A stretch of 64,000 nucleotides of DNA from Pelagomonas calceolata (GCA_918797485.1 CAKKNE010000001.1:682001-746000), one strand, 5' to 3'; positions 1 to 41,668 are shown, counted from the first letter of the stretch. Notes: generated by a model from the sequence alone, not told the origin. Numbers and translations: made by a program.

Positions 1-133
1 CTCAACTTCAAGTTGGTGAAGACGGCGTCAATGCGACGTTCCGACACCGTGACGCCGTCGACGTGGTCGTGAGAGAGTCTACGGGTCGCATGAGAGAGCT
101 GCGGCCGTGTCGCGACGGCGTCGTTCCGCGCAG

Positions 134-6100: not shown

Positions 6101-9100
6101 CATCACGCAGACGCTCGTCGAGCCGGTCAAGCTGCGCATCTGGCAGATGTACGGCCTGCCGACGGACCCCCTGAGCACGCAGAACGGCATCATGCTCGAT
6201 AGAGCTAGACGATGGTCCCTATTCATCGACCCGCAAGGTGCTGACTCGGCGTGAAAATTGAACTTGAACTTGACGTCTGGTCGATGGCGTCTTCGCGAGA
6301 CCACCTCGACGCCGTCGACGCGGCCGCATGGGAGTCGACGCGCCTCGTGAGCGAGTCGCGGTCATTTCGTGACGGCGTCGTTCCCACACAGGACAAGCGA
6401 ACCGCTACATCCGGCGCATGGCCAAGGACAAGGACATCTGCATGAACGGCTTCGACGTCGCGAAACTGACCGATAAGAACTTTCTGCGAACGCTCGAGAA
6501 CGCGGTGCGATTTGGCAAGTGGGCGCTCTTGGAAAACATCCAGGAGACCTTGGACGCTGCTCTCGAGCCCATATTGATGCAGCAGACGTTCAAGCAGGGC
6601 GGCCAGGACATGATGAAGCTCGGTATGTATTGATGTTGAAGTTGAACTTTGATGTTGAACTATGTAGGCGAGAACACGATCCCGTACAACGAGGAGTTCC
6701 GGCTGTTTCTGACCACCAAAATGCCGAACCCGCACTACAGTCCGGAGGTGCAGGTCAAAATCAGTCTTGTGAATTTTACCGTCACGCAGTCGGGGCTGGA
6801 GGAGCAGCTGCTCGGCGCGTCGCGCGGCGTCCGAATCGAGACGAGTCGTATCAAGGAAGCGAGAGCGCCGCGACGCAGGCGCGACGGTCGAGCTCGAGAT
6901 GCCCGAGCTCGCGGAGAAGAAGAGCGAGCTCGTCGTCCAGTCGGCAGCCATGAACAAGCAGCTGTTTGATATTGAATCCAGTATTTTGAAACTGCTGGCC
7001 GAGTCGAAGGGCAACATCCTAGATGATACGAACTTGATCGAGACGCTCGCGCAAGCGAAGAAGACGTCCGACTCGGCGTCCGTTTCCTTCAATTTCCGAA
7101 CTTGAAGTTGCGTCGATGGCGTCGGCGCGACGCGACGCCACCGCGACGCCGTCTTCATGATCACCAGAGAGTCCTTGTGCCGTCAGAGAGCCTCCCGAGC
7201 GCGTCGCGACGGTATCAATCAACACAGGTCGAACGAGGTGAACATCCGCATGCAGGAGGCCGAGGTCACGGCGGTAGAAGTCAACAAGACGTCCGAGGAG
7301 TACCGGCCCGTCGCCAAACGCGCTAGTCTGTTGTACTTCTGCCTCGCGGACATGGCCAATGTGGATCCGATGTACCAGTACGCGCTGCCCTGGTTCAAGG
7401 CCCTCTTTGCCACTGGAGTCGGTAGAGCCCCAGCATCAAATGACATGGAACAAAGATTAGAGAACCTGAACGTCTTCTTCACGTATTTTGTGTACACGAA
7501 CGTGCGCCGTCAGTGTCGTGTAGAGGCGCCTTCACGCCGTCGACGCGACTCGGCTCCGTCAGAGAAGGCGCTGAGTGGTCTCGGGTCCGCGCAGGTGTGC
7601 CGAAGTCTCTTCGAGGCCCACAAGCTCCTCTTCTCCTTCCTGATGACTATTAAAATTATGATGGGCGATAATAGATTAGACGCGCTCGAGTGGCGCTTCT
7701 GCATTAGTGGACAGACGATCAAGCCGCTCGCCCTGGAAAATCCCGCGGACGACTGGATCGAGGCCAACACGTGGTCCGTGACTCGGCGCCGAAAATGACC
7801 TTGAACGTGACGTCTGGTCGATGGCGTCTTCACGAGACGGCGTCGCCTCGACGCCGTCGATGCGACCGTTTCGCGACGGCGTCGTTCCCACGCAGGACCG
7901 AAATCTTGGCGCTTGGGGGTCTCAGCGATGTCTTCAAAGGTCTGCCGCAAGCGTTCAAGGACAATCTGGCGGGCTGGCGCAAGGTCTACGACTCCGAGAC
8001 GCCGCAGTCGATCGGCTACCCCGCACCATATGATAAATTGTCAGGCTTGCAGAACTTGTGTGTCCTACGAGTGATACGACGGGACAAGCTCATGGACGGC
8101 GTCCAGAAGTTCGTCGAGGACGAGATGGGCGCGCTCGCGGCGTCCTGTTGTGTAGAGGCGCCTTCACGCCATCGACGCGTCGAGTCCGAACGGCCCCAAA
8201 CTCGAAAAAGAAACCACTCTCATGGAAGTGAGATGGACACGATGCCCCGCGCAGGTCGCAGATACACGGAGCCCCCGCCCTTTGACCTACCTGCATGTTA
8301 CGACGACTCCGAGAACGTGACACCTCTAGTATTTATTCTATCTACCGGCTCAGATCCAAATAAAGACATCCAGGAGCTCGCGCGGAACCTGTCCATGGAG
8401 GACAAGTGGACCTCTATAGCTTTAGGGCAAGGGCAAGGGGCCATCGCCGAGAAACTCATCGAGAAGAGCACGAAGGACGGCTCCTGGGTCCTCCTGCAGA
8501 ATTGTCATTTATGTGTATCCTGGCTACCGACGCTCGAGCGCATCGTCGAGGACTTCAAGCCGGACCAGGTCCACGAAAGTTTCCGGCTCTGGCTCACGTC
8601 GAAGCCGAGTCCGCACTTCCCCGTGGCGGTGATGCAAGTTTCTGTAAAAATGACGAAGGAGCCGCCGCGCGGTCCGCGACGCGGCGTCGTCTCCGTCAGA
8701 CGAGGTCGTGAGCCGTCTCGTCCCACGCAGGTCTCCGCGCGAACCTCAAGACGGTGTTCCTCAAGATGGACGACGACAAGTTGAACCGGTGCTGACTCGG
8801 CGTCTGAACTTGAACTTTGGGAAGACGGCGTCTTCATGAGACCACAGCGCCTCGCGACGGCGTCGTTCCCGCGCAGGACGAACAAGCCGGCGGACTACCG
8901 CAAACTACTCTTTGGGTTGTGCTTCTTCCACGCGCTGATTATTGAGAGAAAAAAGTTCGGCCCGCTCGGCTGGTCCGCGACGCAGCGTTGAAGTTGACCT
9001 TGAAGTTGAACTTGACTCATATCCACGCAGGAACACGGCCTACGCCTTCAACGAGACGGATTTAGACATCTGCATCTCGCAGCTCGAGCTCTATGTCAAC

Positions 9101-10582
9101 AAATTCGCGGAGATCCCCTTTACTGTACTCAGTATGCTCACGTCGGTGGTCAACTACGGCGGGCGCATAAACGACGATAAGGACATGCGGACGGCGGATA
9201 TCATCATTGCGGACTTCTTGACGCCGGACATTTTAGCTGACTCTTATAAGTTTAGTAGATCAGGCATCTACAAGACGATCAGTACGGATTCTCAGAAAGG
9301 GTATCTGGAGTATATTGACTCGCTACCGATGATGCCCGAGCCCGAGGTCTTCGGCATGCACGGCAACGCCATGATTACGTATGATCTGAACGAGTCGGAC
9401 TCGAACTGCGAGATCATCTTATCGCTCCAACCTAGAACGTCTGGTGGAGGAGGTGTGTCGCGGGAGGACGTCATGGGTGACGCGGCCCGGGACATGGAAA
9501 GTCGCTTGCCAGCTGTTTTCGACCCGGACGACGTGTATCTGCGGTATCCCACGGATTATAATGAATGTCTCAACACGACGCTTGTGCAGGAGGTGACGAA
9601 GTTTACGAGGCTCGAACGGGTCATGGTGTCTACTCTCGCATCCTTGCAGTTAGCCCTGAAAGGATTGGTAGTTTTGAGTTCAGAGCTGGAGGCCATGGGC
9701 AACGCGGTCTACGACGGGAAAGTACCCCTACCGTGGATGGGGAAAGGCTATCCCTCGCTGAAACCGCTGCCGCTATGGTATGCCGATTTACTTAGGAGGT
9801 TGGACTTCATGGAAGGGTGGATTCAGAATGGCACGCCGGACGTCATCTGGATTTCGGTCTTCTTCTTCCCGCAAGGTCCGGCTCGGTGTCTCGTAGCTTG
9901 AATTTGGGGGTCTGTGGCGCCTTCACTTTGTTGCTGTGACTCGTGTCCATCTTCTGATGAAGTTTGGGGCCGTTCGGACCGCGTCGGGACCGCGAACCGG
10001 TTCATTGAAGGACCAGGGACCACCCATCTTCATCATTGATGGAGACGAGTTCAAAACGCCGAGATCTCACTCTTATCAAACGCAGGCTTCATGACGGCCA
10101 ACGTCCAGAATTATGCCAGAAGAAAACAGATTCCGGTGGATACGGTGCAGTTCGGCCATAAGTTGCTGCGGGAGGAGCCCTCGGAACTTACGAGTAAGCC
10201 GGCGTCGGGCTGCTACATCTACGGCTTGTTCCTGGAGGGCGCGCGGTGGGACAAGAGGAACAACACGCTAACGGACCCAAAGCCCAAGGAGCTCTTCGCG
10301 CCCATGCCCGTCATCCACTTGGTGCCCGAGGTCGATCGGGCGCCCAATCCACCAGATGGTGGAATATATAGATGTCCGGTGTACAAGATTTTAACAAGGA
10401 CGGGTACTCTATCAACAACTGGTCACAGTACGAATTTCGTCTTTTGGCTCGAGGTGCCCTCGACGAAACCAACATGCTACCGGAATAGTCTGGTGAGCGA
10501 GACGAACGCCCAGATCAAGTTGTGCGACCAGAGCTACTGGATCAAGGCCGGCGTCGCGTGCTTCTGCGCGCTGAAGTACTAA
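134..10582 (+). CDS. Axonemal dynein heavy chain (inner-arm, DNAH1/6-like), 3' portion; 5' end lies outside the window
   Basis: Spliced model, exons 134-286, 440-1188, 1325-1785, 2041-2449, 2615-2759, 2997-3311, 3431-3573, 3845-4399, 4496-4555, 4826-5239, 5417-5511, 5642-6237, 6392-6622, 6668-6814, 6879-7065, 7228-7501, 7595-7773, 7896-8128, 8255-8671, 8731-8788, 8877-8972, 9031-9875, 10086-10582. Restores [72 protein letters not shown]. Confidence 0.95.
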
Positions 10583-20865: not shown

Positions 20866-22563
20866 CTACATCCCCGCCAGCACGCCCTTGACGGACGGCA
20901 GGGCCCGCCGCCTTTCGGAAACCGGCGTCGCGGCCGCCGGTTTTGCGGGCGGCCGCTTTTCGGGAGGCGACGCGCGCGGCGCGGCCTCGCGCCACGAGGG
21001 CGACCGGCGCATCTTCGTCCGTTTACGCGTTTCCTCTTCACCGATTTGCGAGGAAGGCAGCCGTTTAGCTGCCGCCGCGAAGAACTCGACGACGGCGCGG
21101 TCCGCCCACGACCGCCCCCGCCAATCTAGGAAGGACAGGTGGCCCCCTAACAACGTCGTGCAGCACGCAATGAAGGGACTCAGGTTCACCAGCGTCGCGT
21201 CGGAGATGGCGTACTTGCCACAAAAGGGCACGACATTATCATCACTTGACTGCACACAAAGCAACGGACAACTCAACCGCCCTAGATCCGCAAACCCGTC
21301 GTTCGCCTCGTAGTAGGCCTCGGGGTTCGCGTGGCCCCAGGGTTTACAGATGACCGCCGCCTCGATGTCGTAGATCGACCGCGCAAAAAGAACGTCGCGC
21401 TTGCGGCCGCTCTTCCGTCCACTCAAGAACCAGCTTACTTTCAGGGGGATGGCTATGGCGAAGTTTTGTAGACGTGCCAAGGGACCGCTCCGCATCTGGG
21501 CGCTGCTCGCGGCGAAGGATCGCGGCGACGAGACCGTGCATGCAGCTGTCACGCGTGGATTTCTCGAACTCAGATACTTGGCCAGGATCGCACCACCTAA
21601 ACTTTGACCCACGAGAAACAAACGACATTTCGGGCCGACCTCCTTCCTTATATGCTCCAAGACTCCGTCGAAGTCGCGCCACGCATCAGCACTATAAGGT
21701 TTGGTCGATGTGAGCACCCCGGACGCGCCCGCACCCCGATAATCGTAGGCCACGGCGAGGAAGCCCGCACCATCCAACTGGGCCAGTAAGGACCGCACGA
21801 AGCCCGTCTCGCTCGAGTTGTTCAGGCCTGTGTGGAACTCAAAATTTTACGGCGTGCTGAATCGTCGCGTCGTCCTTCACGCCATCGACGCGATGCCTGC
21901 TCGATGGCGTGGCGATGCCGATTTCTCACCGCTCGACGGAGCCGGCACGGCCGCCTGATTTCCACACAGGTTCACGCCAGGGAAGACCACCGCGACGTCG
22001 GACCGCGACGTCTGGTGCGGGCAGCGCCACCAGGACAACGCCACGGTGCCTCCATCATCCAACTGCAAGCGTTCCACGTAGGGCGCCGTCAGCACGCCGC
22101 AGCCGGCGTAGGGCATCCTCGAACCGAGCTGTAACGTGGCGCTCGCTCCATTTAACGCGGTTACCGGGTGCGGCCAGTACCTTCTTCGTACAATGTCACA
22201 GTTGGCCAAAATGTCCTCCGTGACGCCTTTCCGCGACGTCAGCTTCGGCCGTCGCGCGAGCGCGACGTAGGCGCCGAGGTAGCCGACGCAGGCGCCGCCG
22301 GCCGCCCACTTCGCGCTTTGCGGTAATTTCGCGAAGTGATCTTTGATCGACCGGACCATCTCTGAAACCTTGGCGCGGAGGGCGTTGTCGGCGCGCGCGA
22401 GCACCATGAGCGCGTCGTGGCGCGACCGCAGGCGGAGCGTCCTCTCGAGGCACAGCATGAGCTGTGCTACCAGGTTAATGCGTGGCTGCAGCGCGCGCGC
22501 GATGACTACGATCACTACTCCCTTCGAGGCGGCGTCGAGGCACCAGGCGCGGACGCTGCGCAT
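20866..22563 (-). CDS. Alpha/beta hydrolase, ABHD1/3-like
   Basis: GC-AG intron 21828-21977 joins VVFPG|LNNSSETGFVR; GQSLG nucleophile elbow, SSDDNVV, GGHLSF. Start uncertain. Confidence 0.85.
21828..21969. mobile_element. Introner element with TIRs and 8-bp TSD
   Basis: CTGTGTGGAA...TTCCACACAG termini flanked by GTTCAGGC (21820-21827) and GTTCACGC (21970-21977). Confidence 0.9.
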
Positions 22564-22748: not shown

Positions 22749-22772
22749 GCTAGTGTCTTACAGGCCGCTAGC
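22749..22772 (-). repeat. 24-bp intergenic dyad element
   Basis: Exact reverse complement of 17015-17038. Confidence 0.9.
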
Positions 22773-22972
22773 GAGTCATCCTACAATTGTCTCCTACTAT
22801 TAAATGTAGTATGGACGACTTACGCTATCGTCGCGGGGGGGAAGGGCACAGCGGCATAACATTTGCGAGGTCTGCTGCAGCGTAGAATGGCGAACGCGGT
22901 GACCAGGCGCTGCTCCGGCCGCCATTATATAGCGTCGTCCTCAAAGAGCACGACGGTCGCGTCGCCGCCCAT

Positions 22973-23674
22973 CTAGAGGTCCCAGTCGACGGGCCCGCGG
23001 CTGATCTCCTCCAGGAAATCGTTGGCGGCCTTGAAGCACCCGGACCGCGCGAACGGCGCCGCGGTTTTGGTATAACCGAGCGGCGAGGGGTGCGAGGTCT
23101 TGATGACCTTGTGCTTGGCCTCGTTGATCAGGCCGGCGAGCTTGTGCGCTTTGTCCCCCCACAGCAGGAAGACGACGCCCTTGTCGCCCGCGTCGACGAG
23201 TTTAATGATGGCCTCCGTGAGCCGGCCCCAGCCGAGCTGCAGGTGCGACCCCGCCTTGCCGGCGCGCACCGTCAACGACACGTTCAGGAGCAGCACGCCC
23301 TGCTGCGCCCACGAAGAGAGGTCTCCATCGTCCTTCTCCGACGGCGCCGCGCCCGGGTAGTTGCGCTCGAGCTCGCTCATGATGTTCCGCGAGGTCGGAG
23401 GAAGTCGACCATCCGCGTCGGCCGCGTAGGAGAACGCGAGGCCGTCCGCTTGCCCGGGGCCGTGGTACGGGTCCTGGCCCACGATGACAATTTTCACGTC
23501 CTCGAGAGCCGTCTTATTCAGACAGGCGAACACATCCTCCTTCTTCTGCGGGCACACGGCGTCGGGACCGGCCTCGTACTCGCGAAGTACGGCGGCGCCG
23601 AGCCGATCGCGGTACACCTCCGAGAGCTTTCCCTCGAGCGCGTCGCGCCACGCCTGGGCGCGAATGAGGGCCAT
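22973..23674 (-). CDS. UNG: Family-1 uracil-DNA glycosylase domain (C-terminal module of the fusion)
   Basis: VIVGQDPYHG, GLAFS, WAQQGVLLLN, GSH..GW, VFLLWG, TSHPSPL all intact. Confidence 0.95.
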   Translation of the reverse strand: MALIRAQAWRDALEGKLSEVYRDRLGAAVLREYEAGPDAVCPQKKEDVFACLNKTALEDVKIVIVGQDPYHGPGQADGLAFSYAADADGRLPPTSRNIMSELERNYPGAAPSEKDDGDLSSWAQQGVLLLNVSLTVRAGKAGSHLQLGWGRLTEAIIKLVDAGDKGVVFLLWGDKAHKLAGLINEAKHKVIKTSHPSPLGYTKTAAPFARSGCFKAANDFLEEISRGPVDWDL

Positions 23675-25858
23675 GAGCTCGCCGCCCCTCTTGCGCGGCC
23701 TGTGTGAAGAGAGCTATTGCGGGAGACCTTCGTCGACCTCTAAGCCATCGAACAGACGCAGTACATCGCGTCGATGGCGTGCCGCGAAGCTTGTTTTCTA
23801 CGCCGCGCGCGACCGCTTCGAAGCGGGTCCGTCCGCGTCGTCCGCGTCGCCCGCGTCATCATACTCGTCGGCCAACGCCGCGCACGTCAGTCCCGGAAGC
23901 TTGTGACACGCGAACGTCCCTTCCTCAAAAGAGACGCCCGCCGGGAGCACCCGCCACGCGGCGCACTCCACGCAGCGCTCCTCCTGGACGCCGTTGTACT
24001 GCACGGCGATCAGGCTGTGCCGGTGACGCGGCCCTACCATTGGAGGCAGCGCCCAAGCCGGGATCGCGCCTTTGCTAGTGACGGCGCCGAGCGCCGAAAA
24101 GGACGCCGCGCAGAACCCACAGCACTCCTGGTGGAGCGAGACCGCCTCGAAGCCCGTCGCGCCGTCGCGCAACGCGACCGTGATGGCGGCTCTCTGCTCG
24201 GCGTGCCACCAAACACGCAAACTAGCCTCGGAGAACACGTGGTGCGCGACGCGTCTGTTCCGCCGCGAGCACGCGACGCGCGCCCAGGCCGCGGCGACTT
24301 CTTTACAATTATCGCCGAGGAAGTCGCGCACCTCCTCGTTCATGGGCACGCCGTCCTCGATAGCGTCCATCAAAGGCGCGACAGCTTCGGCCGTGAAGGC
24401 CTCTCTCTTGCAAGCGGCCGCGACGCACCTCAAAAAGATATGCGAGCCGACCGCGTCGGCCGCCTCGCGGTCTTTGGAGGACGCCACGACGACGGAGCGG
24501 TCCGTCAGGCCGGCGCCGAGGGGCCGAGCTATAGCAAACGTCCGCGTCGTGGCCTCGTGGTTCGCCTTCGGGAGTCCAACTGCATTCACGACATCGGCGC
24601 GTAGTTTGTTGATCTTCCGGGCGTGGTCCGCGCCCGCAAGAACCCTCGAAGCTTCTAAAGCTAAGTCACCCGACGGCGGGGCGCCATCATACAACACACC
24701 GCCAGACGTCGTGGCTTCGATCAGATCCGCGTCATCATCTAAAGGACGGAGCCGGAGCGCACCAGTCGTATCGACCCGGCGCTGGGGCGCGGGCGCCGCA
24801 GTCTGCGCGTCCAAAGCACAGCCCTTGCAGACGAGGTCAGGCAGACCCGGGACAAGGAAGCGTTCGCCCTTCAACGCGCTGTGGTCCGGGTCGCCGCAGA
24901 TGACACACCTCCACGCGTCGTGCCGGGCGGCATCGTCGCCGTTGACCGACGACACGCTCACCAAGCACTGCTCCTCGACATTCTTTGTCAACGCCTGCAC
25001 TATATGGCCAACTTTGAACTCAATTCTACCGAGCGCGCCCCTATAGTTGCGGCGCTGCTCGATGCGTTGGCCGACGGCGACGACTTCAGGCCGACCCACG
25101 CCCATTATCCGCTCGGCGACCGACCGACCGCTCGCTAATTTCGACGCCTCGGCGCACTCGTCGTCGTCGAGGACTTCGTCTCGGAACGCGGCCTCCGCGT
25201 CGGCCGCGTCGGCCTGGGCCTCCTCCTCCGCTTCGGCCTCGGCTTCGGTGGCGCGGAAGAAGTCTGCGCGGAGCTTCTCCACCTCGAGCGCCCGGGCCTC
25301 TATGGCCTTCGCTAAAGCAGCTTTCTTCGCCGGCGTCGGGCCGCCAAATCTTTCAACGCGCGCGGCGGACGGGGCGCCATATCTAGCCAAAGCTGAGCGG
25401 CAGGACTGGCAGCCGATGATCATCTCACCATTCCATTCAAAATTGCTGATCCTAATCCCTGGGTCCGCGTCCATCCCGCATCCACATTTGATGCAGTAGG
25501 TTGCGTCCGGAGGATCGAGGGGGTCCAGTCCTGCATTCCAGCGGTTGTGGCACGACCGGCACGCCGTATCTTTGCCATCAGGACCCAGGAAAAAAACGTC
25601 CGTAGGCGACGCGCAGCATAAACACCGGTCAGTTTTGCGCTCGTTCAACGGCGGCAAATCATCGTTTCGTCTCCTTTTGCAAGTATGGCAGACGCGGCCG
25701 CCCGCGACAAGAGCTGCGATCTTTGAGCCGTGAAATAGTTTGTCGCAGTCGAGGCACGTCCAGGCACCGACGACAGGTGTAGATTGCCAGCGGCCCGTCC
25801 CGCGCCGCGTCTCCGGCGTCTGAGTGCCCCCTACCAATCGGCCGAGTGCTGCAAGCAT
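22973..25858 (-). CDS. Fusion protein: CxxC zinc fingers + putative Zn-dependent deaminase + zf-CW + uracil-DNA glycosylase (~923 aa)
   Basis: Exons 25858-23814 and 23699-22973; GT-AG intron 23813-23700 carries the introner core motif and removes the in-frame TAG. HAE 24205-24197, CCGFC 24124-24110, CVECAAWRVLP..FAC..C (zf-CW), junction peptide KRPRKR. Confidence 0.75.
23700..23813 (-). mobile_element. Introner-type intron joining the deaminase/zf-CW exon to the UNG exon
   Basis: Starts GTCGCGCG CGGCGT, contains ACGCCATCGACGCG, ends TTCACACAG; first 8 nt match the next exon start GCCGCGCA at 6/8. Confidence 0.8.
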
Positions 25859-26324
25859 CTTCGCCGATGCCCTTAGGCCGCTCACGCCGTGGCGCGTTCC
25901 TATATGGCCTCAGTGGTCGAAGCGACAATGAGCCTCGCCCGAGGCTGAGGGCGACGTGTATTTTTTCTGAGCCGTTTGCAGTGGTCGTGACGCTCGCCAT
26001 GGTTACGATGATGTTAATGGTGAATGTGAGTTGTGATGATACGGCTTGTAGACGCCTAGGAGCGCCCGAATTAGCGTGAGAGCATGTTCGGAGTGCAGCA
26101 AAAACCCGTTTTGACGCTGCCGTGCTCGCTCGGGCATAGGGTTCTACACGAAATTTACTGTTAGCTACGCGACTTTTACTTGCCCGCTCGTCCACGGTCG
26201 AACTTCGTCGGGCGTTACTCCGAGTCGGCAGCGGCCCCGAGACAACAACTTGGGGGAGGGGTCGATCTTCGGTCTTCTTAGGTCTTGGTCGCGCGCGCGC
26301 GCGACGACGACGACGACGCCGGGA

Positions 26325-26879
26325 TCAGTCGTCGTCCATGGGGTCCGTGCGCTTCGAGGCCGTGCCGCCGCGCCCGCGGACGAACGGCGTCGCGCCGCCG
26401 GCGCCGGAATCGTCGGCGGGCAGCGTCTTCTTGAGGCGGTCGTAGTACTCGCCGAGCTCGCCGACGAAGCGGTCGAAACTCGGGTCGACGAGGAGCTCGG
26501 CGACGTAGCGCTGGACCTCGGGCCGGTTGAGATCCAGGGACTCGAGCGACGCGGCCGGCGTCGGGTCGCCGGTCGCCGCCGCGAAGGCCTCCGCCTCCGC
26601 GGCGGTCGCGAACTGGAGCGCCGCCGCGCCGTCTCCTACACTTACGTCGCGGCCGTCGACGGAGATGCCGCCGCCGAGCGCGAGCGCGACGCGGGCGGAG
26701 GCGTCCGTCTCGCCCGGCACCGTGACGCGCGCCGGCCGCGTGAGGACGAGCTTGAGGAGGCCCTCGGTCTCGCGGACGAGGACGGCGCCGTAGAGGCGGG
26801 CGGCGCCCTTCGTTATCTCCGCGCCGCCCTCGCGCTTCAGGGCGACGTCCGTCCAGCGCTGGAGGGGTACTTGGGGCAT
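26325..26879 (-). CDS. Hypothetical protein
   Basis: ORF from MPQVPLQRW with coding-like codon usage; no recognised domain. Confidence 0.55.
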   Translation of the reverse strand: MPQVPLQRWTDVALKREGGAEITKGAARLYGAVLVRETEGLLKLVLTRPARVTVPGETDASARVALALGGGISVDGRDVSVGDGAAALQFATAAEAEAFAAATGDPTPAASLESLDLNRPEVQRYVAELLVDPSFDRFVGELGEYYDRLKKTLPADDSGAGGATPFVRGRGGTASKRTDPMDDD

Positions 26880-27680: not shown

Positions 27681-28589
27681 CTAGGCCTGGATGTAGACCA
27701 CGGGCCGCTCGAAGATCTTGATCGAGTTCTCGACGTCGTCCAAGGCTTTATGCAAAGCCTCTTGATGTTTGCGAGCGCGCATGCTATTGACGTTCAGCGG
27801 TAATTTGAACAATTCCGCCTTGATCTCGGCCTTGCGTCTCTTCAAATCGTTCAACGACTGCAGCCGCTCCTCATCCGGCATGCGCGTCATGCCCTCGGGG
27901 CACTGCGGGTCCGGCAACAGGGCCTTCTTCGCCTCGGCCTCAGCTCGCAACTGCCGTTTCCGCTGATCTAAGTACGCGGGAACACTCCCAAAATTCTCGT
28001 GCTTTCTAGGTGATGCTTTGGCCACTTTCGTCACGCGAGCCTTCGGCTTCGGGGGTATCGGTTTTTGGGCGTCGACCCTATTCTGCTCGATGCGATCGAC
28101 CGGCTTATGGTGCTTGATCTCGCCTCTAGTTTTAGGTAAGGGCGCCTTCCGCGGCGTCCGCTCCTCGGGAGCTCTGGGCGACATGTTCAGAAATTGCAGC
28201 TTCGGCACCTGTTCTACGCGCTGCTTGTGCACGTCCGCCGGCTTCGGCATGCGCCGACCCGCACCTCGTTTCAAATAAGTAGCATCTTCTCGCGGCGAGA
28301 GCGTGGGGTTCTCCCACTTTTCAGCTTGTTGCACTGCCCTTGAAGCAACATTTCTAAATTGTTTCATCTTGTAGGGCTTTTTCACGGCGTTCGCGGCCTC
28401 CTCCTTCCGCTGGCGATTCTCCCTTTCCGCTCGTCTGATCGCCAGGACATTTTCCCTAGCATGGTCGCGGGCCGGCCGGCCCTTCCTCCGCAACGCCGCT
28501 TGGCGCTCGTTCTCGGTCCCGGGGTGTAAGAGCGCGCCTATACTATCGGCGTTGGCGCGGCTGCGGAATCTCGCGGCGCACTCGGCCAT
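27681..28589 (-). CDS. Enkurin domain-containing protein (ENKD1-like)
   Basis: FGSVPAYL..RK, CPEGMTRMPDEERLQSL, DDVENSIKIFERPVVYI C-terminal enkurin domain. Confidence 0.8.
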   Translation of the reverse strand: MAECAARFRSRANADSIGALLHPGTENERQAALRRKGRPARDHARENVLAIRRAERENRQRKEEAANAVKKPYKMKQFRNVASRAVQQAEKWENPTLSPREDATYLKRGAGRRMPKPADVHKQRVEQVPKLQFLNMSPRAPEERTPRKAPLPKTRGEIKHHKPVDRIEQNRVDAQKPIPPKPKARVTKVAKASPRKHENFGSVPAYLDQRKRQLRAEAEAKKALLPDPQCPEGMTRMPDEERLQSLNDLKRRKAEIKAELFKLPLNVNSMRARKHQEALHKALDDVENSIKIFERPVVYIQA

Positions 28590-28912
28590 CTTTGGTTGTT
28601 GAGCGGTCGCGGCGGCGTTCGGCGCACGCAAATTTGCTGGTGTGCTGCTGGGGCTGTCTGTAGCTCCGCAGCTACGTAACGCTGGCCGATGCGCTTGCAG
28701 CTACAAAGTCTTGGCAGCACGGCTGGGGCCTACGTCGCTTGACGAGTCCTGTGTAGGCTCGAGAGACGCGCTATCGGCCGTACAAAGTCGCAGCGGTTGT
28801 AAACCTGTTTTAACTCTGAGCTAAAATTTGCAAGGCTCGAGCCGCCGTCAGAACCCTCATGGCATCCTTCTCGGAGCCCTCTCAGTACCGACCCGCAGAG
28901 GAGTACCACGGT

Positions 28913-30353: not shown

Positions 30354-33300
30354 ATGTCCCAGATCGAGAAGCTCGCCATACGAGGCATCCGCGCCTTCTC
30401 GCCGGACAGAGAACAGGCCATCGAGTTCGAGTCGCCGTTGACGATGATCGTCGGCGCGAACGGCTGCGGCAAGACGACCGTGATAGAATGCCTCAAGTTC
30501 GGCACGACGGGCCAGGCCCCACCTGGTTCAGCGAGTGGTAAGGCCTTCGTGCACGACCCGAAGGTGACGGGTGTTTCTGAAGTGAAAGCTCAACTCAAAC
30601 TAAGGTTCAAGAACTATGGAGGGCAACGCATGGTCGTCGTCCGGTCCATGCAGTTGACACAAAAAAAAACAACAGCCACCTTCAAGCAGCTCGACGGCGT
30701 GATTCGCGCGACGAAACCCGACGGTTCCAAGACGTCCTACACGCACAAGTGCGGCGAGCTCGACAAGACGGTGCCCATCATGATCGGCGCGATCTCCGCG
30801 TTTTGACGTGTTGCGGGGCCTTCACTTTGTTGCTGGGACTCGTATCATGTCGTGGGTGGTTTCATTTTTTGATTTTGGGGCCGTTTCGCGCGCAGGCGTC
30901 TCGCGAGCGGTGCTGGAAAGTGTCATCTTCTGCCACCAGGAGGATTCGAGCTGGCCGCTGCAGGAGGGCGCGGTGCTCAAGAAGAGGTTTGACGACATTT
31001 TCGATTCGGCGCGCTACACGAAGGCTCTGGACGTGCTGAATAAACAAAAAAAAGGTCTGGCCTCGAAGGCGAAGGACATTTCGGGCGATCTGAAGGGTCT
31101 GCACGCCGACAAGGTGGCCGCCCAGGACCACCTCAAGCGCAAGGCGTCCGCCGAGAAAGCTATACAAAGTGCGGATGCGTCGATAAAGGCTTGTGACGAT
31201 AAACAAGGATCATTGCGAGATGAGAAAAGTCGTATTAATGATAAATTGAGAAAGCTGCAAGCGCAGGAGCAGGGCCTCCAGGAGTGCCGGGCGGAGGTCG
31301 ACGGGCTCGAGCGGTCGCTGAAGTACCTCGAAGAGAGACTAGCTGATAGCGCGCTGATGGACGAGGACGACGACGTCCTCGCGGCGACGGTACTGATTGC
31401 GGCGTCCTTGATGTGACTCGTATCTCACACACGATGACGTGACGTCGCACGCAGGCGGCGCGCTTGCAGGAAGAAGAAGATTCCCAGTTCGACATCATTC
31501 GTAAGTTGGAGCGGGAGGAGGGGAAGCATCGGGAGCTGGCCGAGCAGGCGCGGAAGGAGGCTTCCAGGGTTGACGGCGAAAAAGGGTCCGCCGAGGCGGA
31601 AAAACGGCGCGGCGAGGCGGAAGTGTCGGACCTGCGCGACGCGCTGGCCGACGCCAAGGGCGACCTCGACGACACCTCCGATGCGTATGCTAGACTATCG
31701 CAAGCTCTGAGTAGTTCAGAACCGCTGGATCGCGACGTGGCCGCGCTAGTCCAGAAAACACTAGAAACAAAAGGTGAAGAACTTGCGAAGGAGGAGGCGG
31801 AGACCGAAAAACAGGCCGACGAGGCGTTGAGGAGGGAGGAAAGTGTCGTCGCGGAGAAGCGCAACGCCGTCGAGGGCGCCGCGGACGAAGTGGCCGCGCT
31901 TGCGCCGAAGGTACTGATCTCGGCGTCCCGCGGTGCTGCGGCGCCTTCACGCCATCGATGCGACTCGCCTCCATCAGACGAGGCCTTGGGTGGTCTCGTT
32001 TGTGATTTTGAGCGCATTTCGGGCGAGATCGTGACTCGATACATATCACACAGGTGGCCGACGCCGAGCGCGCGCAACGCGAGGCCGACGACCAGTTAAG
32101 GAAGCTGCGGAACGCCACCGACGCCTCATTAACCCAAGCGAAGAAGAAGGTCGAGGACCAGGAGAAGAGGTTAAGTGACTTCCGTTCAGAGAGAGGTGCC
32201 AAGACGCATGATACGGTCATCAAGAAGTGCGTGGAAGATGAACGGCGCCTGGCTGATGAAATCGAGGAGACGAACCGGAGTCTGGGCCTGCTCGAGGGCA
32301 ACGAGGACGACGAGCGCGAGCTCGGCGTGCTCGAGCACGCGGCGACGCAGGCATGCTCGCGGCGTCTCTTCATGAATCGTCTCCGGGAATGATGGACGTG
32401 GGTGGTCTCGTTTTCGATTTTCGAGCGACCGCGATGTTCCGCGCAGGCCCTCGATCGCTTCTCGGAGGCCTACTCGCGGGACGCCGCGGACCTGCGAGAA
32501 GCCGCCGAGGACTACGAGCAGGATGGCGGGAGCGGCGCCGTCGTGCCGGAACCTCCACCCGTAGAGGATGGCCCGGAGTTCGCCGATCGCCTCAAAAGTC
32601 TCATTTCTTCGGCTAAATCGCGGTTGGACGACGCGTCGAAGACCGCTTCCCAGAGGAACGCGTCGACGACGGCCGACGAGCGCTCGGCGCAGCAGGCGGA
32701 AGCGTCCGCCCGCGCTTCACAGAGAGAAGCGTCGCGCGCGGTCGATGCCTTACCGTCCGACACGCGTGCCAAGCTAGCCGCCATCAAGAAAAAATGTGCA
32801 GCTCTGCGAGATGCGGAGAAGGACGCCGCGCAACACCTCGATGAGGATGCGGAGACCGAGGACGACGTCAAAGCTGTCGACGAGCTCTACAAGGCTGCCG
32901 AGGATTTAAATGTCTTCGAGTGGGCGCGCATCGACAAAGGGGACGACGACCTGGCCTTGGAGACGCTCGTCGCGACGCCCCTGGCGCAGAGCAAGCCGGA
33001 CGCCTTCCAAGCGACGGCGACCTTCGTCCGAGGCATCGCTAGTGTCGTGGCGCGTCGGAAGGAGTCCGCGACGCTGCTGCCGGGAGCCATGGAGTATCTC
33101 CTCGACAAAGTGCGCACGAAGCCGAACAAACACACGGGCTGCAAGATGTGTCCCGTGCGGTGTGGAAATCAACCAGTGCGTCGGGTGCCGGCATCGCCAC
33201 GCCATGAACGCGCCGTAAAATGTTGATGTCCACGCAGGTCCCGTCTGCAAGCGCGACTTCGAAGATAATGAAGAGGCCCAGAAGACGATCGACCGCCTCG

Positions 33301-35536
33301 ACAAGGTCGTGAAGAAGCACGCGCAGGGCGTCGGCGCCGCTTTTACGGATCTCACGACGTCGTGCGCCGAGATCCAAGGTGAGTTGGACGCGCTCGAGCC
33401 GCAGTGGCGCGCCTGGGTCGCGACGCTGCAGAAGAAAGTTTTAGCTGAAAAAGATGTGGACGACAAAAGAAGTGCCGCTTCTTCCGCTTCGGATGCGGCC
33501 AAGGATGCCGCTAATTCTTTGAGGGATGCGGAAGCATCATCAGTGAAGGCTTCCTCGAGCTACGACAAGGCGTGCCACTTGGCGGATCTCGGAGCGAGTT
33601 TGCGCGACGCGGTCCACGCGCGCGACGCAAAAAAAGAAACTTTGGATAGGGTCGCGCAGGACGCCGGGACCGGTGGGAGGCGGTCTCGCAGAGATATTAC
33701 CCGAGATTTGAAACGCTTGCAAGATGAAAAGGAGGCGGCGGTGAACAAGCGGGCGCAGGTTACACTCGGTGTCTGTTAACTTCGCGTCGATGGCGTCGCG
33801 TCGACGGCGCCCGGCGCCACCCGCACGCCATCGCCGCGACGCACCACAAATGACACCGTAACTACACATAGGCCGAAAAGGACAAGGCCGAGGGCCTCCA
33901 GCAGGAGAACGCCATGATCTCGCGCAAGGCCGAGGCGTCCAAAGCTGTAAGTGATCTCGAGCAGCAGCTCGCCGAGAAGCGGCGCTGGGAAGCTTCCCGG
34001 GACGACGCCGCCAAGACGAAGCGCGACTGCGAGAAGCGCGAGAAGGACATCAAGGCCGACGCGCCCCAGCGCAAAGCTGCCTTAGATAAGGCTAAACGTG
34101 ATCAAGAAGAGGCCACTTCCCAATGGACGGCGCGGAAGAAGAAGGCTCGTTCCAAAACGAACGGCGCGAAAGCAGCTGCGTACGCCGTGAAACAAGCCGT
34201 CGCGCAAGCCTCGAGGGGCGACAAGCGCATCGCCGACGCCGAGAAGACCCTGGCGGAATTACAAGAGACGAAGGCGCGCTTCGAAAGAGACGTGGCGGAG
34301 GCGGAAGATGCGGCCGCGGACGTCAACGCCCAAATCGCCGACGCGTCGAAGTCGGAAGATACTAGGATGTTGGAGAAGAAGGAGGTCGAGGGTGCGTGAA
34401 CAGTGTGGAAATCAAATTTCGATGCGATGTTGTGACTGCGTCGGCTCGATGGCGTCGACGCGTGTCGCGACGCTTCCGTTCCCGCGCAGGCGTCCTCGAG
34501 TATAGAGCCCAGCAGAAGAAGAAGGAGGCCTGCGAAGAGAAATTGAGGCGGGCCAAGGACCAGGAACCTGATCAGGATGATGAATTTGCCGGTCGATCGC
34601 AGCAGGACCTTAGTCGTCGGTTATCGAGGATCACGCAAGAGCTGGAAAGGGTCGCGGCCGAGAAGGGCGAGCACGAAGGGCAACGGAAGCAGGCGCGCGA
34701 AGTGGCGCGCGAGCACGCGAACGACCTCGCGACGGCGCGCTACAAAGGTGTGGAAGAGCGGCATAGAAGGGCCATGATCGACAAGGAGACGACCGAGATG
34801 GCTTGTAAAGATGTGGATCTCGGCGTCCCGTTGTGTAGAGATGCCTTCACGCCATCGACGCGACTCGTGTCCATCTCACGATGACGTGGGTGGTTTCTTT
34901 TTCGAGTTTGAGGCCGTTCGGAGACCGCGATGCTCCACGCAGGTCGAGCACTACTGGACGGCCCTCGACAAGGCCCTGGGGTCCTTCCACCGCTTGAAAA
35001 TCGAAGAAATTAATCGTATTATTAAGGAGTTATGGTCGGTCACGTACATGGGCGAAGATATAGATACGATCGAGATTGTTTCGGGGGAGGACAACGGTTC
35101 TAAAAGAGCTGCTCGTTCCTATAACTATCACGTGCGCATGCGCAAGCAGGGTGCTGCCTTAGATATGAAGGGGCGGTGTTCGGCCGGGCAGCGGGTGTTG
35201 GCTTCTATTGTTATTAGGTTGGCTTTAGCTCAGACGTTCTGCATCAAGTGCGGCATTCTGGCGTTAGACGAGCCGACCACAAACCTAGACGAGGCCAATC
35301 GCCGAAGTTTAGCGCATGGTCTTTCGAGGATCATCGCGGACCGCGCGCGGCAGTCGAACTTCCAGCTCGTCGTGATTACTCATGATGAAGAATTTATCGC
35401 CACGCTACGCACGGAGATGGCGGCCCAGGCGGGCGCGTCCATGCCCGAGCACTACTGGCGCATCAGTCGGGAGGAGGTCGGCCAGGGCAAGTTCTATAGC
35501 AAGATCGACAAGATCCCCATGGACCAGCTGCAGTAG
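30354..35536 (+). CDS. RAD50: DNA repair protein RAD50
   Basis: [21 protein letters not shown], zinc hook [31 protein letters not shown]. Introns 30787-30895 (GC), 31390-31454, 31911-32053, 32351-32446 (GC), 33150-33237, 33759-33871, 34392-34489, 34813-34942. Confidence 0.95.
33158..33237. mobile_element. Introner element in the RAD50 zinc-hook codons
   Basis: CGGTGTGGAAATC...GTCCACGCAG flanked by GTCCCGTG (33150-33157) and GTCCCGTC (33238-33245). Confidence 0.85.
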
Positions 35537-39749: not shown

Positions 39750-41668
39750 ATGCGCCTCCACCTCCTCACATGGCTGCTCGCCGCAGCGACTGCTGTTGAC
39801 CTCGGCAAGACGACATACAACCTCAATTTGATCGTAGAGGCCGGCAAAACCACCTATGAAGCGACGCGCGACGACGCCGACGCTCTGCTGAAGCATGCGG
39901 TGGATAACGGCATGGGCACGAGCGTGCAACTATTGCTGCGGTCGGCGGCGGACAAGGTGCGCCGTTCACTTCTGGAATTAGAAGCAAAGCAAGCGACGGA
40001 GAGCAAGCTCTCGGAGACGAAGGACGAGGGCCCGCCCCAAACGCTCACGAACGCGACGGTCGGCGTGCGTGCTCTCAAATCCACGTTCGCCAAGCCCAAG
40101 AAATCCAACGCGATGAAGCGCATGACCGTGGCCGACTTTGCGAAGGCGGTCGAAGACGGCAAGGCCGCCTCTTTACTAAAAAAGCCTCTGATCGTCGAGG
40201 GCGGCGTCGGGGCGCTCGACGAGCTCCGCTCCCTGCTGAGCGCCGAAGCGCTCATGGGCCATGCAGGCGTCACGCTAGAATACTTCACGCCGGCCGTGTC
40301 AAAGCAGAAGCGCACCTTCGAGGAGAACCAGCAACCGCAAGAATGGGAGCACAACGACGTGTCCGTCGAGCGGTACTTCGTAAACTGTTTCAACCTACGA
40401 GCGAAGCCGGACTTCCGCAAGAGAGGCGGCGCGCAGACGGAACATTGTGAGCAAGACGTCGCGTGGTCAACCTTCTTCGGCGGCAACGCGACGGGCCTTC
40501 TGACGGAGTCCCTGGAGGTGGCGGGCGCGGCCCTCGACGCCGACCTCGGACGGACGCGGTTCCTGCTGAAGGCGGTTTCAAATGGCGTGGACGCGGCGAA
40601 GATGGCATTGAAGAGCGCGTCGACGCGGCTCGTGGTCGGTCCCGCCGGCGCGGGCGAGCACCTGCGCCAGCAGCCGACGCCGCTGCTCGACGGCCTTGTG
40701 CACGGGGAGCGGCGGTGGTTCACGATGCAGCCGGACACCTTCATGAAATTACGGAGCAAGGCCGAAGCCTCCGGGGCCTTGGAGCCGTCGTCGGCCTTCG
40801 TGTTTTTTGAATCTCAGCTCGAGGAGCTCGTCGAAGATTTGGATCTGGGGGCGAAGGGGCTGAGCTACCGGGAAGGAAGTCAAAAGCCGGGCGACGTCGT
40901 ATTTATTCCCCCTTCCACTATATTTACGTCGCTGACGTACGCGGACGCGGCGTCGGTGCGCGGCACGCTTGGGACTGCCGGCGACGCGCTGTGTGGAATC
41001 TACACGCAATCGAGCAGATGCAGTCCCGGGGATGACGTCGCGTCGCTGGCGTGGGGCGTCCGAAATTTGATTCCACACAGGCGACGCGGCGAACGCGGTA
41101 GATGCAAAGCTCTGGGCGCCGGAGGGCGCGCGGATTCCCGACAACGTCGCGGCGGCCGCGTGCTACGGCGACCACTTCGACGCCCAGCAGGCCCAGTCCT
41201 CGGCCGCGAGCGCCGGCGCCCGCATTTCGCAGGCCGGCGCGCAGGTCGCGATGATGGCGCAGCAAATCCTGCCGCAGATCTTTCCGACGGCCGCACACCG
41301 TGATTCCCTCGCTCTCGGAGCCCTCGCCGACTGCGCGGGCTTCCGGAGCGTGTCTGGTTCGTTAGCTGGGTCGCAGTGCCGGGCTGTGTGGAAATCAAAT
41401 TTTACGGCGCGTTCGCGCTGAATCGCCGCGTCGACCTCCACGCCATCGACGCGACACCTGCTCGATGGCGTGGCGATGCCGGTTCCTCACCGCTCGACGG
41501 AGCCAGCACGGCAGCGTCATCGCCGAGAAATGACTTAGTGAAGAAAGAATTTTCGGGTGCACCCGACACACTGGTTGATTTCCACACAGGTGCCGGGCAC
41601 ACGCGAGGCCGTGCGCGCGGACGCTCGGCATCGCGGGCGAGGACTGGGTCGCGGGCGTGCTCGCGTAA
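39750..41668 (+). CDS. Signal-peptide-bearing JmjC/cupin-like protein
   Basis: LVVGPAGAG..LVHGERRWF..QKPGDVVFIP; introns 40981-41080 (GC-AG) and 41376-41589 keep the frame to TAA 41666-41668. Confidence 0.7.
40989..41080. mobile_element. Introner element with perfect 8-bp TSD
   Basis: CTGTGTGGAATC...GATTCCACACAG flanked on both sides by GCGACGCG. Confidence 0.92.
41384..41589. mobile_element. Full-length-like introner element with perfect 8-bp TSD
   Basis: CTGTGTGGAAATCAA...TTGATTTCCACACAG flanked on both sides by GTGCCGGG. Confidence 0.95.

What the first reader, a model, noticed from the sequence alone, without database searches (positions are those of the whole stretch)
24050..24700. Putative deaminase domain with toxin-deaminase-like zinc-site spacing
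Seen: His at 24205 and the first Cys of CGFC at 24121 are 28 residues apart, with a CCxxC variant in place of PCxxC and a short hydrophobic strand (FEAVSL) before it. From recall, the dsDNA deaminase DddA uses HVE...CGFC with similar spacing, and OTT_1508-like clades use HAE with CxxC. Inference: a nucleic-acid rather than free-nucleotide deaminase, possibly derived from a toxin or mobile element and of biotechnological interest.
Basis: inference. Interest (0 to 1): 0.75.

Follow-up and report, generated by a model that had tools for sequence, protein, structure and literature searches.

The report
Algal deaminase paired with private uracil-glycosylase
A common ocean alga carries an unannotated gene for a likely DNA-mutating deaminase, flanked by predicted zinc fingers and set in frame just ahead of a duplicated uracil-removing repair enzyme, so the two would likely act as a mutate-then-excise pair, and in cultured cells the locus is transcribed almost only backwards.

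Summary
The motif is real: HAE (His 24205) and CCGFC (Cys 24121) lie in a 686-aa minus-strand ORF identical to the N-terminal part of Pelagomonas calceolata CAH0364052.1, published only as a uracil-DNA glycosylase. A CDA fold is likely (about 0.88): the motif region is the most conserved stretch against the single relative found (45 of 51 residues versus 304 of 497), language-model neighbours are deaminases, and a model guided by an OTT_1508 alignment matches only deaminases at Z 5 or more. Neither DddA/SCP1.201 nor OTT_1508 signatures are met; no bacterial or viral source was found. The context is the real finding: four Cys4 fingers, a CW-like finger and a basic tail surround the domain, and 126 nt downstream, in frame, lies a duplicated UNG that lacks the targeting tail of its paralogue. 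The published model splices both into one protein; this is untested, because poly(A) reads cover the locus almost only antisense. Wild sequences show rearranged forms that lose the deaminase together with the UNG N-terminus. Best reading: a normally silent DNA C-to-U-to-abasic module (0.4). Activity and substrate are inferred.

The parts
23798..25858 (-). 686-aa ORF (ATG to TAG): Cys4 fingers - acidic helical linker - deaminase - CW-like finger - basic tail
   Evidence: P0003; first 681 aa identical to CAH0364052.1
24053..24667 (-). predicted CDA-fold deaminase domain: helix 1, strands 1-2, about 85-aa helical insert, HAE helix, strand 3, CCGFC helix, short strand 4
   Evidence: guided AlphaFold2 model; VIA matches over model residues 47-212
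24197..24205 (-). HAE: predicted zinc His and catalytic Glu
   Evidence: kept in P0002
24110..24124 (-). CCGFC: predicted zinc cysteines (24121 and 24112)
   Evidence: kept in P0002
25679..25756 (-). Cys4 finger 1 (CxxC-x18-CxxC); weak XPA_N / treble-clef matches below cut-off
   Evidence: E 0.00087, 19.7 bits against cut-off 27.1
25550..25624 (-). Cys4 finger 2 (CxxC-x17-CxxC); GATA-like spacing by recall, no Pfam match
25400..25495 (-). Cys4 finger 3 (CxxC-x24-CxxC)
   Evidence: no Pfam match
24818..24907 (-). Cys4 finger 4 (CxxC-x22-CxxC), kept in P0002
23864..23983 (-). CW-like zinc finger, below Pfam cut-off; 31 of 40 residues kept in P0002
   Evidence: (E 0.0027, 18.1 bits against 27.5)
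23801..23827 (-). basic tail PASKRSRAA, candidate nuclear localisation signal, identical in P0002
   Evidence: function inferred
23700..23813 (-). 114-nt GT-AG intron of the published gene model, holding two in-frame TAG stops (23800, 23716); pyrimidine-rich acceptor; splicing neither seen nor testable in the reads at hand
22973..23674 (-). UNG2: family-1 uracil-DNA glycosylase catalytic domain, in frame with the deaminase ORF, duplicate of the host UNG, no N-terminal targeting tail
22812..26250 (+). about 3.4-kb RNA in poly(A) libraries, no splice joint listed, antisense to both ORFs; sharp end at 22812 read as its 5' end; far end approximate

Best explanation
The 686-aa protein is likely a nuclear, zinc-dependent DNA cytosine deaminase, and the duplicated UNG encoded in frame 126 nt behind it is predicted to be its dedicated partner, so that together they would turn C into U and U into an abasic site. 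Steps: (1) shown: motif, domain order, in-frame UNG duplicate, antisense RNA. (2) Predicted: CDA fold with a helical cap between strand 2 and the HAE helix. (3) Inferred: the Cys4 fingers and the CW-like finger bring the enzyme to DNA or chromatin; the UNG part is made from the same transcription unit, probably by the 114-nt intron (one 923-aa chain) with a deaminase-only form when the intron is kept. (4) Inferred: the abasic sites damage or mutate foreign or selfish DNA, as in the APOBEC/AID plus UNG route (own knowledge). (5) Inferred: because this is genotoxic, the locus is held off by an antisense transcript that starts beside the neighbouring gene's promoter, and it is lost or rearranged in part of the wild population.
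For: Core conservation 45/51 against 304/497. ESM Atlas feature neighbours with a family: OTT_1508 0.84, Toxin-deaminase 0.78, MsddA-like 0.75, all ten best named hits in one family or clan (weak by the tool's own scale). Of 18,950 NCBIfam models one touches the domain, cytidine deaminase PRK09027, on residues 152-194, the motif itself (E 0.24). Guided model: pLDDT 69-80 over residues 51-70 and 161-200, deaminase element order; 11 of 48,161 PDB representatives reach Z 5 and all 11 are CDA-fold deaminases, best Z 6.2, rmsd 3.0, 72 aligned. UNG2 keeps GQDPYH, GVLLLN and HPSP, passes TIGR00628 (212 bits against 185.75), and is sister to the UNG1 group (97/95). UNG1 types carry 71-172 residues before the catalytic domain, with a PIP-like and a basic motif in 3 of the 4 checked; UNG2 has 8 residues in 3 of 3, so it needs targeting from elsewhere, and the spliced join reads KRPRKR. 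P0002 and the UNG2 variant P0006 both have a longest contig of 8,442 nt, which suggests the pair stays together in a diverged lineage. Six database proteins join sequence from upstream of the deaminase directly to UNG2 residue 57 or 59, so the rearranged forms lose the deaminase and the UNG2 start together. Precedent for a DNA deaminase with a linked uracil-processing gene: YwqJ-EndoV (PMC13648612).
Against: No activity data. The unguided model failed (pLDDT 40), and the second model was steered by an OTT_1508 alignment, so its fold match is partly circular; mean pLDDT 60.8, Z under 8 is middling, Foldseek gave nothing at E 0.001 in PDB or viral libraries. No Pfam deaminase model hits. Zinc geometry could not be measured. 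The only OTT_1508-type enzymes whose activity I read of edit adenosine in RNA (PMC12754623). Sense transcripts are almost absent (depth 0-1.2 against 3-157 antisense), so neither expression nor splicing is shown. Six in-frame donor/acceptor pairs exist in the gap, so joinability is not rare. Co-location of P0002 and P0006 rests on equal contig length only. The rearranged forms were found through a UNG search, which favours in-frame joins. None of 106 fetched loci, about half of them bacterial OTT_1508 loci with 1.5-2 kb flanks, holds a family-1 UNG. The species has at least five UNG models, so adjacency by chance is not negligible.
Confidence: 0.4

Rival explanations
1. Toxin plus repair antidote: the deaminase attacks DNA as above, but UNG2 is a separate protective protein that cleans up the host's own uracil, as in a selfish killer-rescue locus.
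For: Same linkage evidence; joint loss of both genes in rearranged forms; YwqJ-EndoV precedent; near silence of the sense strand.
Against: UNG2 has no targeting tail of its own and only 126 nt separate it from the deaminase stop; the same paper notes that Ung makes deaminase damage worse in E. coli.
Confidence: 0.17
2. A-to-I RNA editor like fungal OLD: it would edit UAG to UIG, possibly the two in-frame UAG stops between itself and UNG2, giving a conditional read-through fusion.
For: Layout resembles OTT_1508 (insert before the HAE helix, CCxxC); OLD enzymes correct UAG stops in a neighbouring gene (PMC12754623); both stops in the linker are TAG and in frame.
Against: GxxK absent; profile score within motif-fixed shuffles; the first UAG is paired or partly paired in 2 of 3 local folds, no consistent hairpin-loop setting; an intron explains the same two stops; no edit at those sites, though those reads are antisense or unstranded.
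Confidence: 0.15
3. A CDA-fold enzyme with another substrate (free nucleoside or nucleotide, tRNA); UNG2 is an unrelated neighbour merged by gene prediction.
For: Top structural rows include guanine, cytidine, blasticidin and dCMP deaminases; only HMM hit is a cytidine deaminase; the annotation pipeline included ab initio models; other UNG models in this species are also joined to unrelated domains.
Against: Four Cys4 fingers, CW-like finger and basic tail are not expected on a salvage enzyme; structural ranks are tied within 1 Z and include the dsDNA deaminase DddB (Z 5.9, rmsd 3.9, 90 aligned); a housekeeping enzyme should be expressed and widespread, whereas this one has one detectable relative.
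Confidence: 0.13
4. Not a deaminase: a cysteine-rich zinc-binding protein with a chance motif.
For: 1.2% of shuffles give the motif; no significant sequence or Foldseek hit; unguided model all-helical at pLDDT 40.
Against: Peak conservation exactly on the motif segment; independent language-model and HMM hints point to the same clan; element order fits over 165 residues.
Confidence: 0.12

Closest known systems
OTT_1508-like deaminases (PF14441), incl. fungal OLD-1/OLD-2 of the OLD-ZAO system
   Same: HAE, CCxxC, long helical insert between strand 2 and the HAE helix; sporadic, fast-evolving eukaryotic members, some fused to chromatin domains (PMC3239186); zinc fingers nearby and conditional expression (PMC12754623).
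   Different: SxxQ in place of GxxK, no conserved His after strand 4, no PF14441 hit; fingers are in the same chain; linked partner is a UNG, not a transcription factor; stramenopiles are not in the listed range of the clade.
Bacillus subtilis YwqJ-YwqK-EndoV operon (PMC13648612)
   Same: DNA cytidine deaminase with a linked, housekeeping-derived uracil-processing enzyme.
   Different: Bacterial secreted toxin with immunity protein; EndoV nicks without making an abasic site; here a eukaryotic nuclear locus with a glycosylase, possibly in one chain.
AID/APOBEC with UNG in vertebrates, and engineered APOBEC-UNG C-to-G base editors (both recalled, no call)
   Same: Deaminate-then-excise logic giving abasic sites.
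   Different: Natural AID and UNG are unlinked genes; AID is a weak structural match here (5w0r Z 3.9, rmsd 3.4, 83 aligned); the editors are artificial fusions.
DddA / SCP1.201 clade (PF14428) and DddB (BaDTF3)
   Same: His-to-Cys spacing near 28 and CGFC (DddA motif recalled); insert before helix 2; DddB Z 5.9, DddA Z 4.2.
   Different: HxExR instead of HxEx[KQ], no Asn at the end of strand 3, no Pfam hit; no secretion or immunity context. Most tested SCP1.201 members act on ssDNA, not dsDNA (bioRxiv 2023.05.21.541555).
Gene model Pca_1p04010 / CAH0364052.1
   Same: Same locus and sequence.
   Different: Annotated only as uracil-DNA glycosylase; no deaminase or finger is listed in its row.

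Membership tests
CDA-fold zinc deaminase superfamily | HxE in helix 2 and CxxC at the start of helix 3 | tested here: met
CDA-fold zinc deaminase superfamily | alpha/beta core: helix 1, strands 1-2, helix 2, strand 3, helix 3, strand 4 | tested here: inconclusive
   present in the guided model with 11 of 11 top VIA rows deaminases, but the model was steered by an OTT_1508 alignment; unguided model failed
CDA-fold zinc deaminase superfamily | His, Glu and two Cys cluster around zinc | not testable with these tools
   no coordinates returned; the 33-40 column motif segment superposes on cytidine deaminases at rmsd 1.9-3.7 but at E 8-10
CDA-fold zinc deaminase superfamily | deaminase activity | not testable with these tools
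   needs assay
OTT_1508-like (PF14441) | GxxK just before the CxxC motif | tested here: not met
   SLHQ at the same gap-free positions in both sequences; definition from PMC3239186 Table 1
OTT_1508-like (PF14441) | polar residue (usually His) and aromatic-x-x-Pro after strand 4 | tested here: inconclusive
   WALP in P0003 but GLLP in P0002; no His
OTT_1508-like (PF14441) | [quoted passage not shown] | tested here: met
   about 85-aa helical insert
OTT_1508-like (PF14441) | profile match | tested here: not met
   no Pfam hit to E 10; hhalign score 27.7 against 38 members, motif-fixed shuffles mean 25.1 and 95th percentile 34.1 of 200; strand 1-2 profile finds nothing
SCP1.201 / DddA-like (PF14428) | [HD]xEx[KQ] in helix 2 | tested here: not met
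   HAEQR; definition
SCP1.201 / DddA-like (PF14428) | Asn at the end of strand 3 | tested here: not met
   FEAVSLHQ/V; definition
SCP1.201 / DddA-like (PF14428) | secretion domains, immunity gene | tested here: not met
   neighbours are algal nuclear genes
Free-nucleoside CDD/CDA clade | PCxxCR in helix 3 | tested here: not met
   CCGFCA / CCGFCE; NCBIfam 10.7 bits against cut-off 153
zf-CW (PF07496) | profile score above 27.5 bits; four Cys; Trp cage | tested here: inconclusive
   18.1 bits, E 0.0027; four Cys and WR kept in both sequences, the Trp before the first Cys (cage residue, recalled) is absent
UNG family 1 (downstream ORF) | GQDPY, pocket Asn, HPSP motifs; curated cut-off | tested here: met

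The most novel reading that the evidence does not exclude
The locus makes one 923-aa chain, DNA-binding fingers + cytosine deaminase + chromatin-reading CW finger + UNG: a natural single-polypeptide base-editor that writes abasic sites into targeted DNA, founded on an orphan deaminase lineage, held off by an antisense RNA and segregating as present/absent in a globally abundant alga.
Probability: 0.22. Interest if true: 0.85.

Novelty: new variant of a known kind. Interest (0 to 1): 0.62.

Why it matters
Deaminase-plus-UNG DNA processing is known (own knowledge) from vertebrate AID/APOBEC, with unlinked genes, and from engineered editors; a linked deaminase and uracil-repair gene was described only in 2026, in a bacterium (PMC13648612). 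A eukaryotic microbe with both activities in one locus, perhaps one chain, would be a new route to programmed DNA damage or antiviral defence in phytoplankton and a new deaminase scaffold with built-in targeting fingers. Five full-text searches found no paper holding the term sets for this combination; subscription journals are largely outside that library. The locus is directly testable: the species is in culture and both ORFs are short.

Tried and rejected
Relatives of the domain: word search found only P0002 among 7,996 candidates of 377-1201 aa and none among 7,997 of 117-384 aa; phmmer over 1.84 billion representatives gave one 38-residue hit at E 9e-4 outside the motif, judged spurious; metagenome, viral and genome contigs gave 0 confirmed of 143, 444 and 96 pattern matches; a UNG2 N-terminal DNA pattern gave 0 in metagenome contigs; UNG2 gave 0 of 12 in viral contigs; PDB sequences 0; PADLOC 0; second Atlas search no usable hit. 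AlphaFold2 on two sequences was useless. Sequence assignment to OTT_1508 failed its controls: the HMM ranked the ORF at E 9.2 among 292 sequences. Viral structure library: nothing at E 0.001. A protein-coding reading of the plus-strand RNA is unlikely: first ATG gives 29 aa, and the 276- and 287-aa plus ORFs have no Pfam match; Rfam gave two sub-threshold rows. Splicing as the cause of the rearranged proteins: neither junction has GT-AG ends on either strand in this window's sequence. Mobile-element origin: none of the repeats listed (20 of 41 direct families, 25 of 42 inverted pairs shown) falls between 22,400 and 30,700. The gene id was not in the supplements of PMC12054182. Earlier scan notes: nothing relevant. 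No complex prediction was run, as binding is not claimed. No whole genome was held, so paralogues of the deaminase in this genome rest on the database searches only.

Full report
OBSERVATION. The finding lies in a minus-strand ORF, 23798-25885, 686 aa from the ATG at 25858. His at 24205 and the first Cys of CGFC at 24121 are 28 residues apart, preceded by FEAVSL. It is the only such motif in the window's six-frame ORFs, and 124 of 10,000 shuffles of the protein contain one.

SETTING. The window is eukaryotic. The exact protein is on record from JGI/MMETSP, and its first 681 residues are identical to NCBI CAH0364052.1 of Pelagomonas calceolata, a 923-aa model that continues into a uracil-DNA glycosylase. 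By gene order this is Pca_1p04010 in the published table, annotated only as UNG (PMC9481584: passages; supplement file 4, searched and part 11 read; the file is cut, file 5 unreadable).

ANATOMY. From the N-terminus: three CxxC-pair fingers with spacers 18, 17 and 24, an acidic helical stretch, a fourth finger (spacer 22), the putative deaminase, a CW-like finger (E 0.0027, under cut-off) and a basic tail. Finger 1 weakly matches XPA_N and treble-clef models, all under cut-off; fingers 2 and 3 match nothing. 126 nt after the stop, in the same frame, starts a 233-aa family-1 UNG with intact catalytic motifs.

IS IT A DEAMINASE? One relative exists in the collections searched, P0002, 63% identical; all other searches were blank. 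Against P0002 the 51 residues holding HAE and CCGFC are the best-conserved window, 45 of 51 versus 304 of 497 (p 4e-5). The ESM Atlas gives OTT_1508, Toxin-deaminase and MsddA-like clusters as the named neighbours, at scores under 0.9 that the tool calls leads. One of 18,950 NCBIfam models touches the domain, a cytidine deaminase, on the motif, at E 0.24. AlphaFold2 on two sequences failed. I fished bacterial loci with a motif pattern: 38 of 79 matches were in frame and all 38 hit PF14441 at E 0.01, 29 above cut-off. With 45 OTT_1508 rows (36 of those 38, plus 9) the model reached mean pLDDT 60.8, 69-80 in the core, with the order helix, strand, strand, helical insert, HAE helix, strand, CxxC helix. 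All 11 of 48,161 PDB representatives at Z 5 or more are CDA-fold deaminases, tied between 5.2 and 6.2; DddB 5.9, DddA 4.2, AID 3.9. This is partly circular, the Z values are middling, and Foldseek found nothing significant. I put the fold at about 0.88.

WHICH CLADE? None passes. By the definitions in PMC3239186 (sections 10 and 16 read; passages), SCP1.201/DddA needs HxEx[KQ] and an Asn ending strand 3; both fail. OTT_1508 needs GxxK; the protein has SxxQ. The hhalign score of 27.7 beats 100 full shuffles (max 16.5) but not 200 shuffles with the six motif residues fixed (mean 25.1), and a strand 1-2 profile finds nothing. It is laid out like a long-insert OTT_1508 enzyme but is an orphan lineage by sequence.

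THE UNG PARTNER. In a tree of 36 chosen UNG rows (of about 150 fetched; midpoint root) the 13 neighbour-type rows form one group (100/100) sister to six rows of a second type (97/95), with Chrysophaeum further out: a duplication of the host gene, not a viral import. The second type is likely the housekeeping one: reads from another locus ending at 23494 encode its ALDACKLDDV segment on the sense strand, and 3 of 4 checked carry a PIP-like and basic N-terminal tail (motif consensus recalled), whereas UNG2 has only 8 residues before its core. P0002 and UNG2 variant P0006 share a longest contig of 8,442 nt, suggesting retained linkage; UNG2 is 91% identical between the two lineages against 64% for the deaminase protein. 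Five database proteins begin with LDPPDATYCIKCGC (window 25519-25478) joined to UNG2 residue 59, and one begins with the homologue of 26000-25959 joined to residue 57; in window terms 1,977 and 2,452 nt are missing. One, P0145, carries a Tara scaffold label, so at least that form is likely genomic. These may be alleles or decayed paralogues.

ONE CHAIN OR TWO? The published model uses a 114-nt GT-AG intron, 23813-23700, similar in length to introns seen in reads nearby (98-130 nt), with a pyrimidine-rich acceptor, and removes two in-frame TAGs; the join reads KRPRKR. The pipeline mixed transcript, protein and ab initio evidence, and six in-frame joins are possible, so the model is plausible, not shown.

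EXPRESSION. Four raw poly(A) runs of one sample label cover 22812 to about 26250 continuously with no splice joint listed. Controls in one run fix the strand: RAD50 (plus, GT-AG introns on plus) reads as first mate minus, the TMTC-like and enkurin genes (minus) as first mate plus. The locus reads first mate minus, so its RNA is plus-strand, antisense to both ORFs. Depth is 3-157 antisense against 0-1.2 sense within the ORFs. The sharp end at 22812 is of the same kind as those about 150 nt upstream of two control genes, so I read it as the start, divergent from the neighbouring hydrolase gene. The missing splice joint therefore says nothing about the sense intron. Seawater metatranscriptome contigs span the gap unspliced (X15, X17), strand unknown.

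MECHANISM. Best reading (0.4): a nuclear DNA cytosine deaminase with its own UNG, producing abasic sites in foreign or selfish DNA, kept off by antisense transcription. Rivals: UNG2 as antidote (0.17; YwqJ-EndoV precedent, PMC13648612 abstract and discussion read); OLD-like A-to-I editing of the two UAGs (0.15; PMC12754623, part 1 of 3 read; the primary OLD paper not read); other substrate with an unrelated neighbour (0.13); not a deaminase (0.12). Against coupling: no UNG beside any of 106 fetched loci and at least five UNG models in the species.

NOVELTY. Five searches returned no paper for this organism or architecture; the genome paper's main text has no occurrence of 'deaminase'. New variant of a known kind: known fold and known two-step logic, undescribed lineage and arrangement. 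Interest 0.62; 0.85 if the single chain is real.

Noticed in passing
published table, Pca_1p23220: Another gene model in the same species joins a CW finger, a SNF2 domain and a family-1 UNG; Pca_5p02790 joins HhH-GPD and UNG. CW-UNG may be a recurring module, or these are merged models.
   Followed up: no
P0135: A protein with the housekeeping UNG N-terminal half and the UNG2 C-terminal half, switching at the shared GQDPY segment: recombinant or assembly chimera.
   Followed up: no
window 25659-26000 (-): An out-of-frame ORF from ATG 26000 overlaps the deaminase start; its first 14 codons are kept in P0138 (11 of 14 identical). Possible upstream ORF damping translation.
   Followed up: partly
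window 26325-26879 (-) and 27681-28631 (-): A 184-aa ORF without Pfam match and an enkurin-domain gene (E 7.7e-20); the published table lists only one model between the UNG and SAP genes, so one appears unannotated.
   Followed up: partly
window 1-10000, 30800-34950, 41400-41600, 46900-47200, 58300-58500, 21850-21960: Dispersed 100-200 nt repeats, several inside introns, consistent with the introner elements described for this alga.
   Followed up: no
window 22770-22812: Apparent bidirectional promoter: minus-strand RNA below about 22770, plus-strand RNA from 22812.
   Followed up: partly
L018, L024, L046, L060, L072 (Herbidospora) and L039: OTT_1508 domains with long helical inserts inside 500-700 aa open frames in several actinomycetes; context not examined.
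   Followed up: no
window 23450 (UNG2 residue 77) and residue 95: This UNG2 has QADGL and PPTS where P0006 and UNG1 have QAHGL and PP[TS]L; effect on activity unknown.
   Followed up: no
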